A stretch of 14,988 bases of DNA, from contig CAYUTF010000081.1 of the NCBI GenBank assembly GCA_964447495.1, positions 1 through 14,988 on the forward strand, in the 5' to 3' direction. Below the pieces are notes generated by a model that worked only from the letters and a program-made list of their open reading frames with translations, did no database searches and had not been told where the DNA came from. How positions within the stretch are numbered: position 1 is the first letter of the stretch; the number at the start of each line of letters is the position of its first letter. The DNA comes from an uncultured archaeon. GTDB taxonomy: Archaea; Asgardarchaeota; Lokiarchaeia; Sigyniarchaeales; SOKP01. Of the stretch, positions 45 through 4,927 are shown piece by piece. A program made the position numbers and the translations under genes.

Positions 45-2243
45 ATGCGTAGAAGTAATTTAGTGTTAACAAGATATTTGATTATTTTATTTTTTATAAT
101 AACTCCTCTCTTCGGTTTAATTTCAATTTCAAAGGAATATAATAACAATCATATGATTGAACTAAATAGCTTGGAATTATCAGATAAAATTGCTAATATT
201 GAGTTAACAGATTTGCCTCAAATTGATTATGCTACTCTAAATGATACTTGGTATAATCCCAAAATTGAAATGTTGATAATTTCACCGAATCAAAGTGAAT
301 TCGTTGATGAATTAAAACCCCTTGCCGAATGGAAAAATTATAAGGGGGTAAAAACGGTTATACTCTCTAATTATACGTTATATCCTGGAATAGATGATGC
401 TGAGAAAATTAGAAACATGATTAAGTCATATTATGCTAGTGATAATATCCGATGGGTTCTATTAGCAGGTGATGCTGAAGATGATGTAATCCCAATTCGT
501 TATGTTCTTAATCCTGATGTATTATTGGTTTCACCTCCTGAATCAGAATATTCCAATTTGGATGATTATTATAAACCTACAGATTTTTATTATGCTGAAT
601 TAGATGGTAATTGGAATGAAGATGGAGATGGAAATTGGGGTGAAAATCCTAAAAACAATGCAAATGGGAAAGATGAAATTTCTTGGATTCCAGATGTATA
701 TGTTGGTCGATTGCCAGCGGATAATGCTGTAGAACTTTCAAATATGGTTAATAAATCACTAAAATATGAAATGAATCCAGAAGTTGGAGATTGGATGAAT
801 AAAATGTTATTAGCAGGAGGTATCTCATTATATTATCCCGCAGAAGATGAAGCACGACTTACTGAATATATTTGGCAACATTATACATATCTAAATATGA
901 ATTTTACTAATCTGATAAAAACTACTTCTAGTTTTACTCCAGCTATACCTCCTCCGCCAAACCAACAGGCAGCTCTTAATAATGTAAATTTTGAGGGAGC
1001 TTTTAATGGAGATGCATTTGGTGAAGGAAATTCAGTAGTATTCTTTGCCGGACATGGTGATCCAGGAGTATTTAGTGATGAAAGTGGATCTAATTATTAT
1101 TCTAACACTGATGCTAGCAGTAGCAGTAACTTAAACAAACCATCTTTGGTATACGCAGATGCTTGTACAACAGCTCCTTATGATCTTGATTATAGTGTAG
1201 GAGATAATAATATTGGAGAGAATCTTATTAATCGACCACATGCAGGAGCTATTGGATATATTGGAGGAATACGCGTTAACTGGTATTTACCGGATGATAT
1301 AAATTTAGAAAAATTAAATCGGGGAAATGCGAAACTATTTTTCAAAGAATTCTTCGGGGAAAAAAAGTTCCAACAAGGAAGAGCACTGTTCGATTCTAAA
1401 GTAAGCTACATGAACAGCGACTATTTTCTGAGGGGAGATACCTCAATGGTATTAGAATGGCAAAGAAAAAATATTCTAGCCTATAATCTATTAGGCGATC
1501 CTGAAATTGACATATATACCGATATTCCCACTTCTGTTCCTAATTTCTTTCAAGGAGATATATATGAAGGTCAACTGCTTTCTTTCAATGTTAAAGATAA
1601 TTTAGACAGAACTGTTCCCTATGCACGAGTACATCTAAGAAGTTCAGATGGGAAATATCGGACGGTTTATGCTGATATTAATGGAGACGTTAAATTTAGA
1701 CTGCCCCTCCAAAATAATGAGTTCTATAATGTGACCATCACGGGGCACAATTTAATACCCACTACTTATAATTTTACTACTAAGGAAGATGTAGATTTAC
1801 CTAAGTTGATTACATTTGAAAGTATACCTCATGATTTATCTGTTGATGACCACCTTTACTTTAGCTTAGTTAGTCAAGATAATCATTCAGGAATAGAAAG
1901 TGTATTTATTATATTAACGAAAAATAACTTTGAAGAATACTACGTATATAGAGTTGGGAATAACTTCGATGAGAATCTTCAGGAATTTAATATTACATTT
2001 AATAAGATGGACCCGGGAGATTATTCTTATGCCTTTATTGTTAGAGATTATACGAATAAAACTAAAATTTATTATGAAGAATCGTTTAAATTTCTAATAG
2101 AGACCCCAATTATATATTATATAACGATAATCTCAGTTTTCATGATCGTCGGTATTGTGTGTATCTCAATTTTCTATACTATTTTTAAACTAAACGAATA
2201 CAATAATATAAATCAAAGAATTCCTCCAGATCTCAAAATGTAA
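45..2243 (+). CDS. Peptidase C25 (gingipain-like) cysteine protease, membrane-anchored
   Basis: C25-type motifs LAEWKNYKG, WVLLAGD, PTDFYYAELDG, PDVYVGRLP, catalytic His (FFAGHG) and Cys (YADAC), and YNLLGDP. Hydrophobic N-terminal signal/anchor and a C-terminal TM helix (IIYYITIISVFMIVGIVCISIFYTIF). Confidence 0.9.
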   Translation: MRRSNLVLTRYLIILFFIITPLFGLISISKEYNNNHMIELNSLELSDKIANIELTDLPQIDYATLNDTWYNPKIEMLIISPNQSEFVDELKPLAEWKNYKGVKTVILSNYTLYPGIDDAEKIRNMIKSYYASDNIRWVLLAGDAEDDVIPIRYVLNPDVLLVSPPESEYSNLDDYYKPTDFYYAELDGNWNEDGDGNWGENPKNNANGKDEISWIPDVYVGRLPADNAVELSNMVNKSLKYEMNPEVGDWMNKMLLAGGISLYYPAEDEARLTEYIWQHYTYLNMNFTNLIKTTSSFTPAIPPPPNQQAALNNVNFEGAFNGDAFGEGNSVVFFAGHGDPGVFSDESGSNYYSNTDASSSSNLNKPSLVYADACTTAPYDLDYSVGDNNIGENLINRPHAGAIGYIGGIRVNWYLPDDINLEKLNRGNAKLFFKEFFGEKKFQQGRALFDSKVSYMNSDYFLRGDTSMVLEWQRKNILAYNLLGDPEIDIYTDIPTSVPNFFQGDIYEGQLLSFNVKDNLDRTVPYARVHLRSSDGKYRTVYADINGDVKFRLPLQNNEFYNVTITGHNLIPTTYNFTTKEDVDLPKLITFESIPHDLSVDDHLYFSLVSQDNHSGIESVFIILTKNNFEEYYVYRVGNNFDENLQEFNITFNKMDPGDYSYAFIVRDYTNKTKIYYEESFKFLIETPIIYYITIISVFMIVGIVCISIFYTIFKLNEYNNINQRIPPDLKM

Positions 2244-2474
2244 GTCAATTAACTTAATTTTTATTATTATAGCGTGCAAAAGGAGCCTCATTTTTAATTC
2301 CAATGTTTTTAAAAATGAAATTTTAATTGAGTCAATTCAATTTTGATAAAATTTAATTAATAAGCTACACTATCTCTAAATACTTTAGACCGAATAAGGA
2401 AACATTTCTAATGAAAATATTGATCCTTATTGAATGGTCTCATGTGATAATCTTAACCACTATATTTATCTCGA

Positions 2475-2613
2475 AAAGCGCCGGAAGTTAAACTGTTTCG
2501 CGTTGCATTCAGTACTGTAGTTGCGATCTATGGGAACTTGCAAACTGTAGCTTTGGCTACGGTCATGGTGATCCAGGATATACCCGGTCCCATCCCGAAC
2601 CCGGAATCGCTTT
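2475..2613 (+). other. Bulge-helix-bulge/loop-like splicing-endonuclease motif formed by the two ends of the 5S unit
   Basis: The outer helix 2475-2480/2608-2613 is followed by a 3-nt bulge AAU (2605-2607), a 4-bp central helix CCGG(2481-2484)/CCGG(2601-2604), and AAG (2485-2487) on the opposite strand. The inner side is relaxed. Confidence 0.8.
2487..2606 (+). rRNA. rrf: 5S rRNA, circularly permuted (3' half 2487-~2552, then 5' half ~2555-2606)
   Basis: 5' half is GGCTACGGTCATGGTGATCCAGGATATACCCGGTCCCATCCCGAACCCGGAA, with the loop C hallmark CCCATCCCGAAC. 3' half is GTTAAACTGTTTCGCGTTGCATTCAGTACTGTAGTTGCGATCTATGGGAACTTGCAAACTGTAGCT, with loop E AGTA/GAA and a GCGA-containing loop D. Helices I-V can all be drawn. 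The unit is 120 nt long and GC-rich against an AT-rich background. Confidence 0.93.
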
Positions 2614-2661
2614 CTATATATGTGGTTAAAGATGATCACATATTTCATTACAATTTTTCAA

Positions 2662-2679
2662 AGAAAAACGTTTTTAAAA
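2662..2679 (+). promoter_or_regulatory. Putative BRE-TATA promoter for the 2700 gene (probably leaderless)
   Basis: AGAAAAACG followed by TTTTTAAAA, ending 20 nt before the ATG at 2700; no SD-like motif. The AT-rich background limits certainty. Confidence 0.45.
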
Positions 2680-2699: not shown

Positions 2700-3242
2700 A
2701 TGTTCGATAAGTTCATCTTAATTCTAAAATCAATTGGTCGAAAATGGTTTCTGTTATTAATATTACTAATTGTGATAATCTTTCTATTCAATCCAGAAAT
2801 TGCAATTTGGATGATAATCATTACGTTAGTTATATATTTAGTTTCATTTATCCCAAACTTATTCTTTTCCAATAAATTTAATAGATATATAAAGAAATTC
2901 CATTCCTTAGAAGATAAAGCTCTCGCAAAAAAATTTAATAAACCTCTTAAATTAATACAAGAAAAATTATTTGATCTCTTCCAAAACCAAGAGAAAAAGA
3001 ACTGGGTCATTATTTATCTTAACAAGCAATACATATTTTATAATCGGGAAAGTGTAGAGAAGTTTATGGAATTATATAATAGTGGTTTTGGAGAAAAAGA
3101 AATTTTAGAAAATCTGCAAGAATATGGAATAAAAACGAGAGCGGAAGTCAAAGCAATTTCGGATATTTTAATAAAATTCAACAAACTTAAAGATAGAGAA
3201 GTTTCAGTTAAAACTTATCGTAATGAACAACGATTTAAGTGA
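2700..3242 (+). CDS. Hypothetical membrane protein (two N-terminal TM helices, basic soluble domain)
   Basis: 180-aa ORF with hydrophobic stretches WFLLLILLIVIIFLF and IAIWMIIITLVIYLVSFIPNLFF. It ends 5 nt from the convergent gene. Confidence 0.75.
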   Translation: MFDKFILILKSIGRKWFLLLILLIVIIFLFNPEIAIWMIIITLVIYLVSFIPNLFFSNKFNRYIKKFHSLEDKALAKKFNKPLKLIQEKLFDLFQNQEKKNWVIIYLNKQYIFYNRESVEKFMELYNSGFGEKEILENLQEYGIKTRAEVKAISDILIKFNKLKDREVSVKTYRNEQRFK

Positions 3243-3247
3243 TTTGA

Positions 3248-4927
3248 TCATGATTGTGTGATTTTATTTATATTCGCAATTTCTCTTAATATGATCAAAA
3301 CAAGTTCAATCTCACCGTTCTTATTTTTTGATGCGATATTTGTGGTGCACCAACACTTAATTTTCAAATCTTTTTTTCCCTGAAAGATATATTCATATTC
3401 ATGAATTTTTCCATCCGTAAAACATTTTTTCGCGATACAGTGCTTGCAGGGTTTATTTGAATTCAATAAGAATTCATAACATTTCTTATCCTCAAATTGA
3501 GAATTAAATAAATTCTGCGTTTCATTATTTACCCAAATAATATTGAATTCCTTGTCAATCAAGATTATGGATTCAGTCAATGAGCAGAGAATAGCGGTGA
3601 GTAATTGATTTGTATTTTTCAAGGTTTCCTCTGACCATTTTCTTTGTAAAGCATTTCCAATAATTTCAGATGAAGTTTTTAGCAAAGTGAAATCATCCCT
3701 TCTCCAGCGCGTTGATCCTTCAAGATCGTCGAATCCAATAAATCCGAGTAATTTTTCATTTATTTTAATTGGAAAAAGTACTAATGATTCAATATTTAAT
3801 TTCTGCAATTCTGCTTTTGTGTGTATTTCCTTTTCTGGAAGATCTGAAACATTTTTTATATACACATATCCTTTTTTTTCATACTCTTTTTGAATCCAAG
3901 GAAAATCATCGACATTTGAGTTTACCAAATTTATTTTATTATGCTTGGTCGTTTCAGAGCAAGAAACTTGCGAATAAAATTCTACTGTTTTGTCTTCATT
4001 ATTGAGTAATAGATATGCGTTGGAAGCACCAATTAATTTTCCCATTTCGATTAATGAATAATCGATCGCATCATCTATATCGATATTACTGATAAACCTT
4101 GAAGAGACAGAGGATATTAATTTTTCTATTTCTAGTTTATGCTCTATCAATTGATTGGCTTGCTTAATTTCGGAAAGATCCAATAGAATTGCTTGTAATA
4201 TCTTTACATCCCTTAGTTTTACAATAGATAATAGCGATGTAATCCATATGATACTGCCATCTTTTTTATATATTTTAAATTCAGTAGGTTTAACTATGAT
4301 TCCATTCCATGTATTCTGTAACCTTTCTTTTAAAAGAGGGAGATATTTCAAGGGATATGCTGATAATTTGAGATAATTTTTATGAATTAAATCTTCTTTG
4401 CTATATCCAAAAATTTTTACAGTAGCCTGATTACAGTCTATTATGCTTCCATTTTGATCTAATAATACAATTGGAAAAGGAGCCTGTTCAAAAAGGTGTT
4501 TGTATTTTTCTTCTGATTGCTTCAAATCCAATTCGATTAATTTCTGCTTACTAATATCATTAATGTAAATAATGATAAGATCATCTGGAACTAAAAAGAA
4601 ATTGATTGAAAGATAGTTTAATTTATCATTAGCTTGTGGAGCATATTTGATCTCTTTGATTTCTCCTTGCTTCTGTAGCATACATTCATTCATTTTTTGT
4701 AGAATAAGGGGGGTTTCTTTAAAGAACTCTGAAGCTGGGGTGTTTAATAAGTTTTTTATATCAATGTTTTGTTCTTTTTCAGCAGCAGCATTATAATCAA
4801 TTAAAATAAAATCATCTTCTATTTTCTGCCAAACATAGGCAGGATTAGGAAAGCTGTCAAAAATAATTTTTAAAATTCCATGGGAGAGAATCGATCTATC
4901 GTCTATTATCGTCATTGACTTTTCCAA
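3248..4927 (-). CDS. PAS-PAS-GAF-PAS sensor protein with no output domain
   Basis: PAS (IFDSFPNPAYVW...DYNAAAE), PAS S-box (SEEKYKHLFEQAPFPIVLLDQNGSIIDCNQAT...FGYSKEDL...KKDGSIIW), GAF (IESLVLFPIKINEKLLGFIGFD...W), and a final PAS (SIILIDKEFNIIWVN...CYE...PCKHC). TTG start, exact start uncertain. Confidence 0.88.
   Translation of the reverse strand: MEKSMTIIDDRSILSHGILKIIFDSFPNPAYVWQKIEDDFILIDYNAAAEKEQNIDIKNLLNTPASEFFKETPLILQKMNECMLQKQGEIKEIKYAPQANDKLNYLSINFFLVPDDLIIIYINDISKQKLIELDLKQSEEKYKHLFEQAPFPIVLLDQNGSIIDCNQATVKIFGYSKEDLIHKNYLKLSAYPLKYLPLLKERLQNTWNGIIVKPTEFKIYKKDGSIIWITSLLSIVKLRDVKILQAILLDLSEIKQANQLIEHKLEIEKLISSVSSRFISNIDIDDAIDYSLIEMGKLIGASNAYLLLNNEDKTVEFYSQVSCSETTKHNKINLVNSNVDDFPWIQKEYEKKGYVYIKNVSDLPEKEIHTKAELQKLNIESLVLFPIKINEKLLGFIGFDDLEGSTRWRRDDFTLLKTSSEIIGNALQRKWSEETLKNTNQLLTAILCSLTESIILIDKEFNIIWVNNETQNLFNSQFEDKKCYEFLLNSNKPCKHCIAKKCFTDGKIHEYEYIFQGKKDLKIKCWCTTNIASKNKNGEIELVLIILREIANINKITQS

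What the first reader, a model, noticed from the sequence alone, without database searches (positions are those of the whole stretch)
2544..2563. Natural 5S ends are fused by a C(UUUG)G tetraloop, so the mature 5S may stay circular
Seen: helix I (ACUGUAGC/GCUACGGU) is closed by only UUUG (2552-2555), with no spacer between the conventional 3' and 5' ends. Established: c(UUNG)g loops with a C-G closing pair resemble the stable UUCG tetraloop family, whereas permuted tRNAs have a linker that is removed after circularisation. Inference: ribosomes may carry a covalently closed 5S rRNA, like the circular Thermoproteus SRP RNA, or one nicked in helix III if ligation does not occur.
Basis: partly seen in the sequence, partly recalled or inferred. 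Interest (0 to 1): 0.8.

Follow-up and report, generated by a model that had tools for sequence, protein, structure and literature searches.

The report
Circular, permuted 5S rRNA in Asgard archaea
The hairpin is the capped end of a 5S ribosomal RNA gene whose two halves are encoded in swapped order and rejoined by the tRNA-splicing machinery, giving a closed 120-base RNA ring that is probably the form used in the ribosome.

Summary
An 8-bp helix (2544-2551 with 2556-2563) is closed by UUUG (2552-2555). It is helix I of a circularly permuted 5S rRNA gene: the 3' part lies at 2487-2551 and the 5' part at 2556-2606.

[quoted passage not shown] Ligating those ends rebuilds the canonical 5S sequence as a 120-nt circle.

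- **Cap:** in 62 genomes it is 4 nt in 61, with G4 in 61/61 and U1 in 59/61, mostly UUCG.
- **Structure:** 93% of cells paired, against 36-43% in slid controls.
- **BHB:** found at the rebuilding position in 58 of 61 loci.
- **RNA:** three metatranscriptomes each hold a 150-nt contig that is a closed 120-nt cycle, identical to the window. It crosses both the 2606->2487 joint and the tetraloop, without leader or trailer. Two further contigs show the same for relatives.
- **Enzymes:** the genome has two EndA-domain genes, RtcB, and no canonical 5S.
- **Distribution:** in 151 Asgard genomes, 36 have the permuted gene and 49 the canonical one, never in the same family.

A circular RNA is shown. 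That it stays circular in the ribosome is likely (about 0.7) but not shown. I found no prior report.

The parts
2427..2437 (+). putative archaeal promoter (TATA-like TTATTGAATGG), about 20 nt upstream of the outer stem
   Evidence: The block aligns with a conserved TTATAAAATGG-like block at the same distance in relatives (printed flanks). Its function is inferred, not tested.
2453..2460 (+). outer processing stem, 5' strand (TTAACCAC), pairs with 2622-2629
   Evidence: Paired in the minimum-energy fold of 2445-2640. Both arms are conserved in genus relatives.
2475..2480 (+). BHB outer helix, leader strand (AAAGCG), pairs with 2608-2613
   Evidence: Relatives keep the pairing with other letters (ACG/CGT, CGC/GCG).
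2481..2484 (+). BHB central 4-bp helix, leader strand (CCGG), pairs with 2601-2604
   Evidence: It covaries in relatives (CTGG with CCAG, CGTG with CACG, GTCG with CGGC).
2485..2487 (+). leader 3-nt bulge AAG; predicted cut between 2486 and 2487
   Evidence: The RNA contigs join 2606 to 2487. The rule of cutting after bulge nucleotide 2 is recalled, not from a call.
2487..2551 (+). 3' part of 5S rRNA: loop B 3' side, helix II 3' strand (2493-2501), helix V (2503-2507 with 2539-2543), loop E (AGUA 2511-2514, GAA 2534-2536), helix IV (2515-2520 with 2528-2533), helix I 3' strand
   Evidence: nhmmer model 47-116, E 9.7e-5. Pair counts. Covariance model R1 scores 109.4 bits.
2544..2551 (+). helix I, 3' strand (ACUGUAGC)
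2552..2555 (+). UUUG tetraloop that replaces the natural 5' and 3' ends
   Evidence: crossed by RNA contigs
2556..2563 (+). helix I, 5' strand (GCUACGGU)
2556..2606 (+). 5' part of 5S rRNA: helix I 5' strand, loop A, helix II 5' strand (2568-2576), helix III and loop C (2582-2606)
   Evidence: RF00001 positions 1-51, 27.6 bits. Positions 27-51 score 23.7 bits. nhmmer E 7.8e-5.
2601..2604 (+). BHB central helix, trailer strand (CCGG); the same bases form the 3' strand of helix III in the mature RNA
2605..2607 (+). trailer 3-nt bulge AAU; predicted cut between 2606 and 2607
   Evidence: Bulged in the minimum-energy fold; RNA joint.
2608..2613 (+). BHB outer helix, trailer strand (CGCTTT)
2622..2629 (+). 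outer processing stem, 3' strand (GTGGTTAA)
2654..2675 (+). two T5 runs (2654-2658, 2671-2675), putative archaeal terminator
   Evidence: Sequence. A GTTTTTAAA-like block recurs downstream in relatives. Inferred only.

Best explanation
Positions 2544-2563 are helix I of the organism's only 5S rRNA gene, which is circularly permuted. The gene encodes the 3' part (2487-2551), then a UUUG tetraloop where the natural ends would be, then the 5' part (2556-2606). The primary transcript starts near 2453 and folds leader onto trailer: an outer stem, a 6-bp helix, a 4-bp CCGG/CCGG helix and two 3-nt bulges, which together make a relaxed bulge-helix-bulge motif. The tRNA splicing endonuclease cuts at 2486|2487 and 2606|2607, and RtcB joins A2606 to G2487. 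This restores the canonical ...CCCGGAA-GUUAAAC... junction between helix III and loop B and yields a covalently closed 120-nt 5S rRNA. The UNCG-like tetraloop is a permanent cap on helix I. The ring is most likely not reopened and is the form built into the 50S subunit. Shown: gene order, structure with covariation, the BHB by sequence, the enzyme genes, and RNA that is continuous across both the joint and the loop. Inferred: which enzymes act, and that the ribosomal form is the ring.
For: Permuted order is shown, and the genome holds a single copy. The 5S fold is supported on 34 distinct sequences: 93.2% of cells paired against 36-43% when slid, and 16 of 27 pairs change on both sides. A BHB at the position that rebuilds canonical 5S is present in 58 of 61 loci, with covarying central and outer helices and 10-16 bp G+C-rich outer stems in other families. 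The window's own BHB is recovered in the unconstrained fold. For RNA, 3 metatranscriptomes hold 11 of the 14 sampled words. X1, X2 and X3 each have a 150-nt contig with 0 differences over 2481-2606. The 12 letters before and behind it continue round the ring, so the contig is 120 + 30, a closed k=31 cycle. There is no depth on leader or trailer in X1 and X3. In X1 the mean word depth is 2, so cover is even across loop and joint. A 151-nt contig in X3 (depth 17.8) and a 150-nt 'goes back 100' contig in X4 show the same for relatives, and 121 nt is the ring size predicted for the UUCG-type relatives. The cap is 4 nt in 61 of 62 genomes, with G4 in 61/61 and U1 in 59/61; UUCG occurs 36 times and UUUG, UACG and UUAG 7 times each. 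C(UUUG)G has the same tabulated energy as C(UUCG)G. Two EndA-domain ORFs (104 and 69 bits) and RtcB (561 bits) lie in the genome. No canonical 5S is found in the genome or in 0 of 25 sampled family members. Precedents: an engineered E. coli 5S with its native ends joined by a 4-nt connector works (PMC7283268, passages read); the circular permuted SRP RNA (PMC4731332, passages read); circular 23S in archaeal ribosomes (PMC12918454, passages read).
Against: All RNA runs are Logan contigs, so read ends, strand and local depth are invisible, and the depths are low (2, 6 and 2 for the exact contigs). A mixture of a ligated-then-reopened form with uncut intermediates could also close the k-mer cycle. 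Nothing ties the ring to ribosomes. The BHB lacks an inner helix in most loci (0 bp in the scan), and 3 of 61 loci fail the outer-helix criterion. The 3' part alone gives no Rfam hit, and the full gene scores below the RF00001 cut-off. Circular pre-16S/23S RNAs and permuted tRNAs are normally reopened. UUUG lacks the C3 of the classical UNCG loop.
Confidence: 0.7

Rival explanations
1. The ring is only a processing intermediate. A nuclease opens or removes the UUUG cap, giving a conventional linear 5S with ends at the tip of helix I, as happens with permuted tRNAs and circular pre-16S/23S.
For: This is the general precedent for reopening circular archaeal precursors (PMC12918454 background passage; permuted tRNAs as cited in PMC4267664). 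Contigs cannot show ends.
Against: The cap is always 4 nt and UNCG-like rather than a variable linker (61 of 62 genomes). RNA contigs cross the loop in closed cycles in 4 runs, and in X1 the mean depth equals the assembler's apparent floor, so loop-spanning words are not visibly rarer. No leader or trailer words that would mark precursors appear in X1 or X3. A 4-nt connector is tolerated in working ribosomes (PMC7283268).
Confidence: 0.12
2. Cleavage occurs but ligation is partial or dispensable. The ribosomal form is a linear permuted 5S with ends at the helix III/loop B junction, held together by base pairing, like the permuted mitochondrial 5S of brown algae.
For: Permuted linear 5S molecules exist in brown-algal mitochondria (PMC4267664, passages read). 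The ends would lie next to paired helices II and III.
Against: Joint-spanning words are present in all 4 runs laid, at the exact predicted joint. In 12 of 61 loci the break lies inside the conserved loop C (type B), where an open nick would disrupt a functional loop. RtcB is present.
Confidence: 0.1
3. The ring is reopened at some other site, giving a linear 5S with new ends elsewhere.
For: Not excluded by contigs. The 23S of Pyrococcus is reopened at a different site (PMC7758197, search listing and abstract only).
Against: The k-mer cycle is complete in 3 runs for this species, so no position lacks spanning words. No conserved excisable element is present in the window's gene.
Confidence: 0.05
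4. The locus is a non-functional relic or an assembly artefact, and the real 5S lies elsewhere or is unassembled.
For: The genome is a 223-contig draft. One other weak RF00001 candidate exists at 17.7 bits.
Against: That candidate lies antisense inside an ORF of more than 956 aa. The permuted gene is conserved with covariation in 62 genomes and is expressed. Families with it have 0 canonical 5S genes and families with canonical genes have 0 permuted ones in the same 151 genomes.
Confidence: 0.02

Closest known systems
Circular, permuted SRP RNA of Thermoproteus (Plagens et al. 2015, PMC4731332; passages read)
   Same: The gene is permuted. Leader and trailer form a BHB cut by the tRNA splicing endonuclease. 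The ends are ligated to restore a functional element. The circular RNA is the functional form.
   Different: The RNA is different (5S rRNA, a ribosome component). It is spread over at least 11 families of a phylum rather than found in two species. The break point moves between relatives. Many copies also carry BHB mini-introns. No biochemistry has been done here.
Circular 23S rRNA within archaeal ribosomes (PMC12918454; passages read)
   Same: A BHB-excised rRNA is ligated and then kept as a ring in the mature ribosome.
   Different: The 23S genes are colinear and the ring joins the natural ends. Here the gene is permuted and the natural ends are replaced by a tetraloop. That paper states that 5S rRNAs are not processed through circularisation.
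Low-level 5S rRNA circles in Sulfolobus, Halobacterium and Pyrococcus (PMC3326292, PMC12558985, bioRxiv 10.64898/2026.03.23.713588; passages read)
   Same: The whole 5S is seen as a circular RNA.
   Different: Those come from colinear genes without a BHB. They are minor species with variable ends and are discussed as possible degradation products. Here circularisation is required to restore the molecule.
Permuted mitochondrial 5S rRNA of brown algae (Valach et al. 2014, PMC4267664; passages read)
   Same: Helix I is a closed hairpin and the chain ends lie elsewhere.
   Different: The product stays linear and permuted, with an open three-way junction. There is no BHB and no ligation, and the setting is an organelle.
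Engineered cp5S rRNA in E. coli (Huang et al. 2020, PMC7283268; passages read)
   Same: The native 5' and 3' ends are joined by a 4-nt connector, the molecule is opened in loop C or D, and the ribosomes work.
   Different: It is artificial, it is fused into 23S rRNA, and it is not circular.
Permuted tRNA genes of Cyanidioschyzon merolae (as cited in PMC4267664; otherwise recalled)
   Same: The halves are swapped, a BHB is present and there is a circular intermediate.
   Different: In tRNA the linker over the natural ends is removed to give a linear tRNA. Here the link is a conserved 4-nt tetraloop that RNA contigs run through.

Membership tests
5S rRNA (Rfam RF00001) | Score at or above the curated cut-off (38 bits) on the colinear model | tested here: not met
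   There are 0 hits at gathering threshold in the window. The best is 27.6 bits for the 5' part searched alone. The 3' part alone gives no hit. The shortfall is expected for a permuted gene and concerns the model, not the molecule.
5S rRNA (Rfam RF00001) | Helices I-V in a three-way junction, supported by covariation | tested here: met
   27 pairs in 5 helices are 93.2% paired, against 36-43% in slid controls. 16 pairs change on both sides, and 0 of 500 shuffles reach the observed values.
5S rRNA (Rfam RF00001) | Conserved loop C / helix III sequence, and loop E AGUA/GAA | tested here: met
   Positions 2582-2606 align to model positions 27-51 with nearly all letters identical. GTACT and GGGAA are invariant in 34 sequences. 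The naming of the loop E motif is recalled.
5S rRNA (Rfam RF00001) | Homology of both halves to canonical 5S of the nearest lineage | tested here: met
   nhmmer with 6 sister-family genes gives E 7.8e-5 and 9.7e-5, in swapped order.
BHB-processed circular permuted non-coding RNA (Thermoproteus SRP RNA type) | Leader and trailer form a 4-bp helix flanked by 3-nt bulges, placed so that ligation restores the canonical RNA | tested here: met
   Found in the window and in 58 of 61 loci; 3 loci fail on the outer helix. The inner helix is mostly 0 bp, so the motif is a relaxed form.
BHB-processed circular permuted non-coding RNA (Thermoproteus SRP RNA type) | RNA carrying the ligated junction | tested here: met
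   Closed-cycle contigs in X1, X2 and X3 (this species) and in X3 and X4 (relatives) carry the joint 2606->2487.
BHB-processed circular permuted non-coding RNA (Thermoproteus SRP RNA type) | Splicing endonuclease and RtcB ligase encoded | tested here: met
   PF01974 matches twice (104.2 and 68.6 bits) and PF01139 at 561 bits.
BHB-processed circular permuted non-coding RNA (Thermoproteus SRP RNA type) | Cleavage by the endonuclease at the bulges, and function of the circular form | not testable with these tools
   This needs an in-vitro cleavage assay and ribosome preparations.
UNCG tetraloop | 4-nt loop with U at position 1 and G at position 4, closed by C-G | tested here: met
   The window has C(UUUG)G. 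Across 61 four-nt loops, U1 occurs in 59 and G4 in 61. The closing pair over 62 rows is C-G 33, G-C 20, A-U 8, U-G 1.
UNCG tetraloop | C at position 3 | tested here: not met
   The window has U3. Among relatives, 46 of 61 have C3 and 15 have U or A. The loop works like a UNCG cap in the energy table (+3.7, equal to UUCG) but is not a strict member.
Permuted tRNA type (linker over natural ends removed after circularisation) | The linker is excised, so mature RNA lacks linker-spanning sequence | tested here: inconclusive
   RNA contigs span the loop, which argues against removal, but contigs cannot quantify or show ends.
Circular rRNA in mature ribosomes (23S type) | The ring is present in purified ribosomes | not testable with these tools
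   No ribosome-derived data are on hand.

The most novel reading that the evidence does not exclude
A large part of the Asgard archaea (at least 11 families, and all 6 genera of the window's family sampled in the phylum survey) has given up the linear 5S rRNA. Their only 5S gene is circularly permuted, often interrupted by 30-nt BHB mini-introns, and matured by the tRNA-splicing machinery into a covalently closed ring. That ring, with a UNCG-type tetraloop where every other organism has the 5S ends, is the 5S rRNA of the working ribosome. This would be the first natural circular 5S rRNA.
Probability: 0.65. Interest if true: 0.92.

Novelty: new variant of a known kind. Interest (0 to 1): 0.88.

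Why it matters
5S rRNA is regarded as a universally linear, free-ended molecule. Recent work on circular archaeal rRNAs explicitly leaves 5S out (PMC12918454).

- **Biology:** a ring-shaped 5S as the sole 5S of whole Asgard lineages would extend the circular-rRNA idea to the third rRNA. It would show that helix I needs no free ends in nature, as ribosome engineering suggested. It would also make ribosome biogenesis in the closest archaeal relatives of eukaryotes depend on the tRNA splicing endonuclease and RtcB.
- **Annotation:** Rfam and standard annotation miss these genes. None of the 25 sampled family members reaches the RF00001 cut-off, so such genomes are scored as lacking 5S rRNA.
- **Evolution:** the moving break point and the 5S introns give a natural series for studying how permuted RNA genes arise.

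Tried and rejected
- **Rfam at gathering threshold on the window:** nothing found.
- **ARAGORN:** no tRNA or tmRNA, so this is not a permuted tRNA.
- **Rfam on the 3' part alone:** no hit. Homology was shown with a profile of sister-family 5S genes instead.
- **Second weak RF00001 candidate in the genome** (contig C28, 17.7 bits, E 0.9): it lies antisense within an ORF of more than 956 aa. Rejected as a chance match.
- **Thermodynamic folding:** it does not recover the 5S fold and gives no signal (circular minimum free energy -27.8 kcal/mol, z = -0.6 against 200 mononucleotide shuffles). The structure rests on covariation instead.
- **Unconstrained BHB scan:** it picked spurious A+T-rich helices in many loci. 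It was replaced by a scan restricted to positions that rebuild 5S.
- **blastn outside the family:** the 146-nt region found nothing convincing in the 24 genomes from other families (best E 0.07). The covariance model was needed.
- **Parts of the laid stretch without RNA cover** (2380-2475, and in X1, X3 and X4 also 2608-2720): noted only. Contigs cannot prove absence.
- **Literature:** nine searches gave no report of a permuted or BHB-circularised archaeal 5S. Subscription-only papers are not covered.

Full report
**Observation.** The window reads ACTGTAGC (2544-2551), TTTG (2552-2555), GCTACGGT (2556-2563). This is an 8-bp stem with one G-U pair, closed by C-G, capped by four bases, with nothing else between the arms. 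Such a hairpin is not rare by itself in this 31% G+C DNA. There are 11 hairpins of this size on the + strand, against 11.2 +/- 3.6 in 300 resamples. The strict C(UNNG)G form occurs once against 0.11 expected. The case rests on what the arms are.

**It is a permuted 5S rRNA gene.**
- Rfam at its curated cut-offs finds nothing in the window, and ARAGORN finds no tRNA.
- At relaxed thresholds, RF00001 positions 27-51 (helix III and loop C) match 2582-2606 almost letter for letter at 23.7 bits.
- Searched alone, 2556-2606 matches positions 1-51 as a 3'-truncated 5S (27.6 bits, E 1.3e-4). The stretch 2487-2551 alone gives no Rfam hit.
- A profile built from six canonical 5S genes of the sister family hits the unaltered window twice. 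Model positions 3-51 fall at 2557-2606 (E 7.8e-5) and 47-116 at 2482-2550 (E 9.7e-5). The 3' part of 5S is therefore encoded upstream of the 5' part, and the finding's hairpin is helix I with the natural ends replaced by UUUG.
- The gene sits between a Peptidase_C25 ORF (45-2243) and an ORF with no Pfam match (2700-3242).

**Structure.**
- I aligned the common core (window 2487-2589) with homologues. I used 34 distinct sequences from 41 loci. Identical rows were dropped, and L026 was left out because the contig end cuts it.
- I wrote the 5S fold onto the MAFFT alignment: helices II, V, IV and I, 27 pairs in all.
- 93.2% of cells pair, against 36-43% when partners are slid by 1-3 columns. 16 pairs change on both sides. 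No measure is reached by any of 500 shuffles.
- Helix I is 95.6% paired and three of its pairs show compensatory change. Most of its unpaired cells come from two rows of another family that MAFFT shifted by one column.
- GTACT and GGGAA, the two sides of loop E, are invariant.
- Thermodynamic folding alone does not recover the 5S fold (z = -0.6).

**How the halves are rejoined.**
- In the minimum-energy fold of 2445-2640, TTAACCAC (2453-2460) pairs with GTGGTTAA (2622-2629). AAAGCG (2475-2480) pairs with CGCTTT (2608-2613). The leader CCGG (2481-2484) pairs with the trailer CCGG (2601-2604), and AAU (2605-2607) is bulged.
- With the leader bulge AAG (2485-2487), this is a bulge-helix-bulge motif. 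Cutting after the second bulge nucleotide (a recalled rule) gives a 5' end at G2487 and a 3' end at A2606. Joining them writes ...CCCGGAA-GUUAAAC..., the canonical sequence between helix III and loop B, in a ring of 120 nt.
- A scan restricted to positions that rebuild 5S finds such a motif in 58 of 61 loci: a 4-bp central helix, two 3-nt bulges and an outer helix of at least 3 bp. Three loci fail on the outer helix.
- The helices covary. The central helix appears as CCGG/CCGG, CTGG/CCAG, CGTG/CACG and GTCG/CGGC. The outer helix appears as GCG/CGC, ACG/CGT and CGC/GCG.
- Other families have 10-16 bp G+C-rich outer stems.
- The inner helix is mostly absent, so the motif is the relaxed kind.
- The genome encodes two ORFs with the tRNA-intron endonuclease catalytic domain (208 and 206 aa; 104 and 69 bits) and an RtcB ligase (561 bits). 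I read the two paralogues as a heteromeric endonuclease of broad specificity. That reading is from recall, not from a call.

**RNA evidence.**
- Three metatranscriptomes from three studies hold 11 of the 14 sampled words of 2470-2620.
- Laid on 2380-2720, X1, X2 and X3 each give one 150-nt contig with no difference over 2481-2606. The 12 letters before it are 2589-2600 and the 12 behind it are 2487-2498.
- Because 2481-2486 equals 2601-2606, the contig is 2589-2606, then 2487-2606, then 2487-2498. That is 120 + 30 letters with identical 30-letter ends, which is how a k=31 assembler writes a closed cycle.
- The contig therefore holds both the joint 2606->2487 and the tetraloop, and nothing of leader or trailer. 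X1 and X3 have no depth outside 2476-2607. The X2 contig over 2613-2720 differs at 9 places and belongs to a relative.
- A 151-nt contig in X3 (depth 17.8) and a 150-nt contig in X4 ('goes back 100', depth 7.85) do the same for relatives. The UUCG-type relatives are predicted to give 121-nt rings.
- The joined form does not exist in the window's DNA, so it is RNA.
- Limits: these are contigs, the depths of the exact contigs are 2, 6 and 2, and ends, strand and local depth cannot be read.

**The cap across relatives.**
- A covariance model of the permuted core gave 62 genomes with the gene, counting the window.
- The loop is exactly four bases in 61 of the 62. The count is UUCG 35, plus one more that the model misaligned (L050, read by eye). 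UUUG, UACG and UUAG occur 7 times each, CUCG twice, and UCCG and UAUG once each.
- Position 4 is G in 61 of 61 and position 1 is U in 59 of 61.
- The closing pair is C-G in 33, G-C in 20, A-U in 8 and U-G in 1, changing together with the stem.
- One genome (L076) has 31 extra bases beside a UUCG, with no BHB that I could find.
- In ViennaRNA's Turner-2004 table, C(UUUG)G costs +3.7 kcal/mol, the same as C(UUCG)G. Loops not in the table cost 4.5-5.5. Three rows with inserts or misalignment and the canonical genes were left out of that calculation.
- A linker destined for removal would not be expected to keep this length and these two bases. That step is an inference.

**Distribution.**
- By blastn, 32 of 36 other genomes of the genus have the gene at E <= 1e-12. 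The four without are 71, 81, 95 and 95% complete.
- In one sample of 151 genomes of the phylum, the permuted model hits 36. These are the window's own genome and 23 of 25 further genomes of its family, plus 12 genomes in nine further families. RF00001 passes its cut-off in 49, in seven other families. No family has both.
- Counting f6, which a class-level search added, eleven families in all carry the permuted gene.
- In that class-level sample, 8 of 101 genomes pass the RF00001 cut-off. Six are in the sister family. The other two are genomes of the window's family whose hits look bacterial to my eye, and one of them (G014) also has the permuted gene.
- The window's genome has one permuted copy and no canonical one. 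The only other candidate lies inside a long ORF.
- Named records closest to the neighbouring C25 peptidase gene are MAGs labelled Promethearchaeia, Promethearchaeota and 'Candidatus Hodarchaeota' (49-60% identity), so the organism is an Asgard archaeon.

**Mechanism and odds.** I take as shown the gene order, the fold, the BHB by sequence and covariation, the enzyme genes, and an RNA continuous over both joint and cap. I take as inferred that EndA and RtcB do the work and that the ring is the ribosomal form. I give the whole statement 0.7. The rivals are reopening at the cap (0.12), an unligated nicked form as the working one (0.10), reopening elsewhere (0.05), and a relic or artefact (0.02).

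**Comparison with the literature.**
- The closest system is the permuted, BHB-circularised SRP RNA of Thermoproteus (PMC4731332).
- Circular 23S rRNA in archaeal ribosomes is the closest ribosomal precedent, and that paper excludes 5S from circular processing (PMC12918454).
- Low-level 5S circles from colinear genes without a BHB are known and are thought to be possible degradation products (PMC3326292, PMC12558985, bioRxiv 10.64898/2026.03.23.713588).
- Brown-algal mitochondrial 5S is permuted but linear (PMC4267664).
- E. coli tolerates a 4-nt connector over the native ends (PMC7283268).
- For all of these I read passages found by term search, not whole texts. PMC7758197 was seen only as a listing and abstract.
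- Nine full-text searches found no report of a permuted or BHB-circularised archaeal 5S. Papers outside the open library could hold one.

**Verdict.** The hairpin is the visible tip of a larger finding that appears unreported: permuted, intron-bearing, circularised 5S rRNA genes across much of the Asgard archaea.

Noticed in passing
L031, L064 (same genus); L043, L044, L047, L048, L049, L051, L070, L074 (genus g18); L041, L046: A second permutation point. In 12 of 61 loci the BHB cuts inside loop C (...GGUC|CCAUCC...) instead of after helix III, and it still rebuilds the canonical sequence. Both types occur within the window's genus and within g18, so the break point has moved repeatedly.
   Followed up: partly
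L019, L021-L025, L027-L030, L032, L047, L052, L067-L070, L074, L075: About a third of the permuted 5S genes (20 of 61 loci) carry an insert of about 30 nt. In 19 of them it lies at one of three sites: helix IV, loop D or loop C. In the 11 loci examined, each insert is flanked by a 4-bp helix and two 3-nt bulges, and predicted splicing restores the insert-free consensus exactly. These look like BHB mini-introns in 5S rRNA, which I do not recall having been described. No RNA check was possible.
   Followed up: partly
L076 (G073), at the helix I cap: A 31-nt G+C-rich insert sits beside the UUCG cap of helix I, with no BHB found. It may be an extension of the helix I tip. If so, it would fit a closed, solvent-exposed tip.
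   Followed up: partly
leaders of L005-L016, L031, L043-L051 and others; absent in window 2461-2474: Many relatives have a leader hairpin of the form GTAGC-NNNN-GCTAC just upstream of the BHB. It resembles the helix I cap and is followed by the last bases of the 5' part. This could be a remnant of a tandem or multi-round copy, for example a duplication or reverse transcription of a ring. This is speculation.
   Followed up: no
phylum sample of 151 genomes: Canonical and permuted 5S genes are mutually exclusive by family: 7 families have only canonical genes and 10 have only permuted ones in this sample. About 10 families have neither, which may hide further divergent or differently permuted forms. 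Standard 5S detection fails on all of the permuted genes, which affects genome quality labels.
   Followed up: partly
L033 (G087:C68) and L040 (G014:C263): Two genomes of the window's family carry a high-scoring colinear 5S (80.8 and 51.9 bits) on other contigs. Their sequences look bacterial to my eye, so they are probably bin contamination.
   Followed up: no
L036 (G044:C1, about 1399892-1400758): A closed 4.4-Mb sister-family genome has three canonical 5S genes in tandem, about 375 bp apart. This is the kind of array from which a permuted gene could arise.
   Followed up: no
G000 contig C28:29788-29884 (-), L002: A 97-nt stretch inside a long ORF carries a loop-C-like CCCATCCCGAAC and could pair at its ends. 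It scores 17.7 bits on RF00001. I judged it a chance match.
   Followed up: yes
window 45-2243 (+), 3248-4927 (-): The neighbouring ORFs are a Peptidase_C25 family protein (194 bits) and a PAS/GAF sensor protein. The ORF at 2700-3242 has no Pfam match.
   Followed up: no
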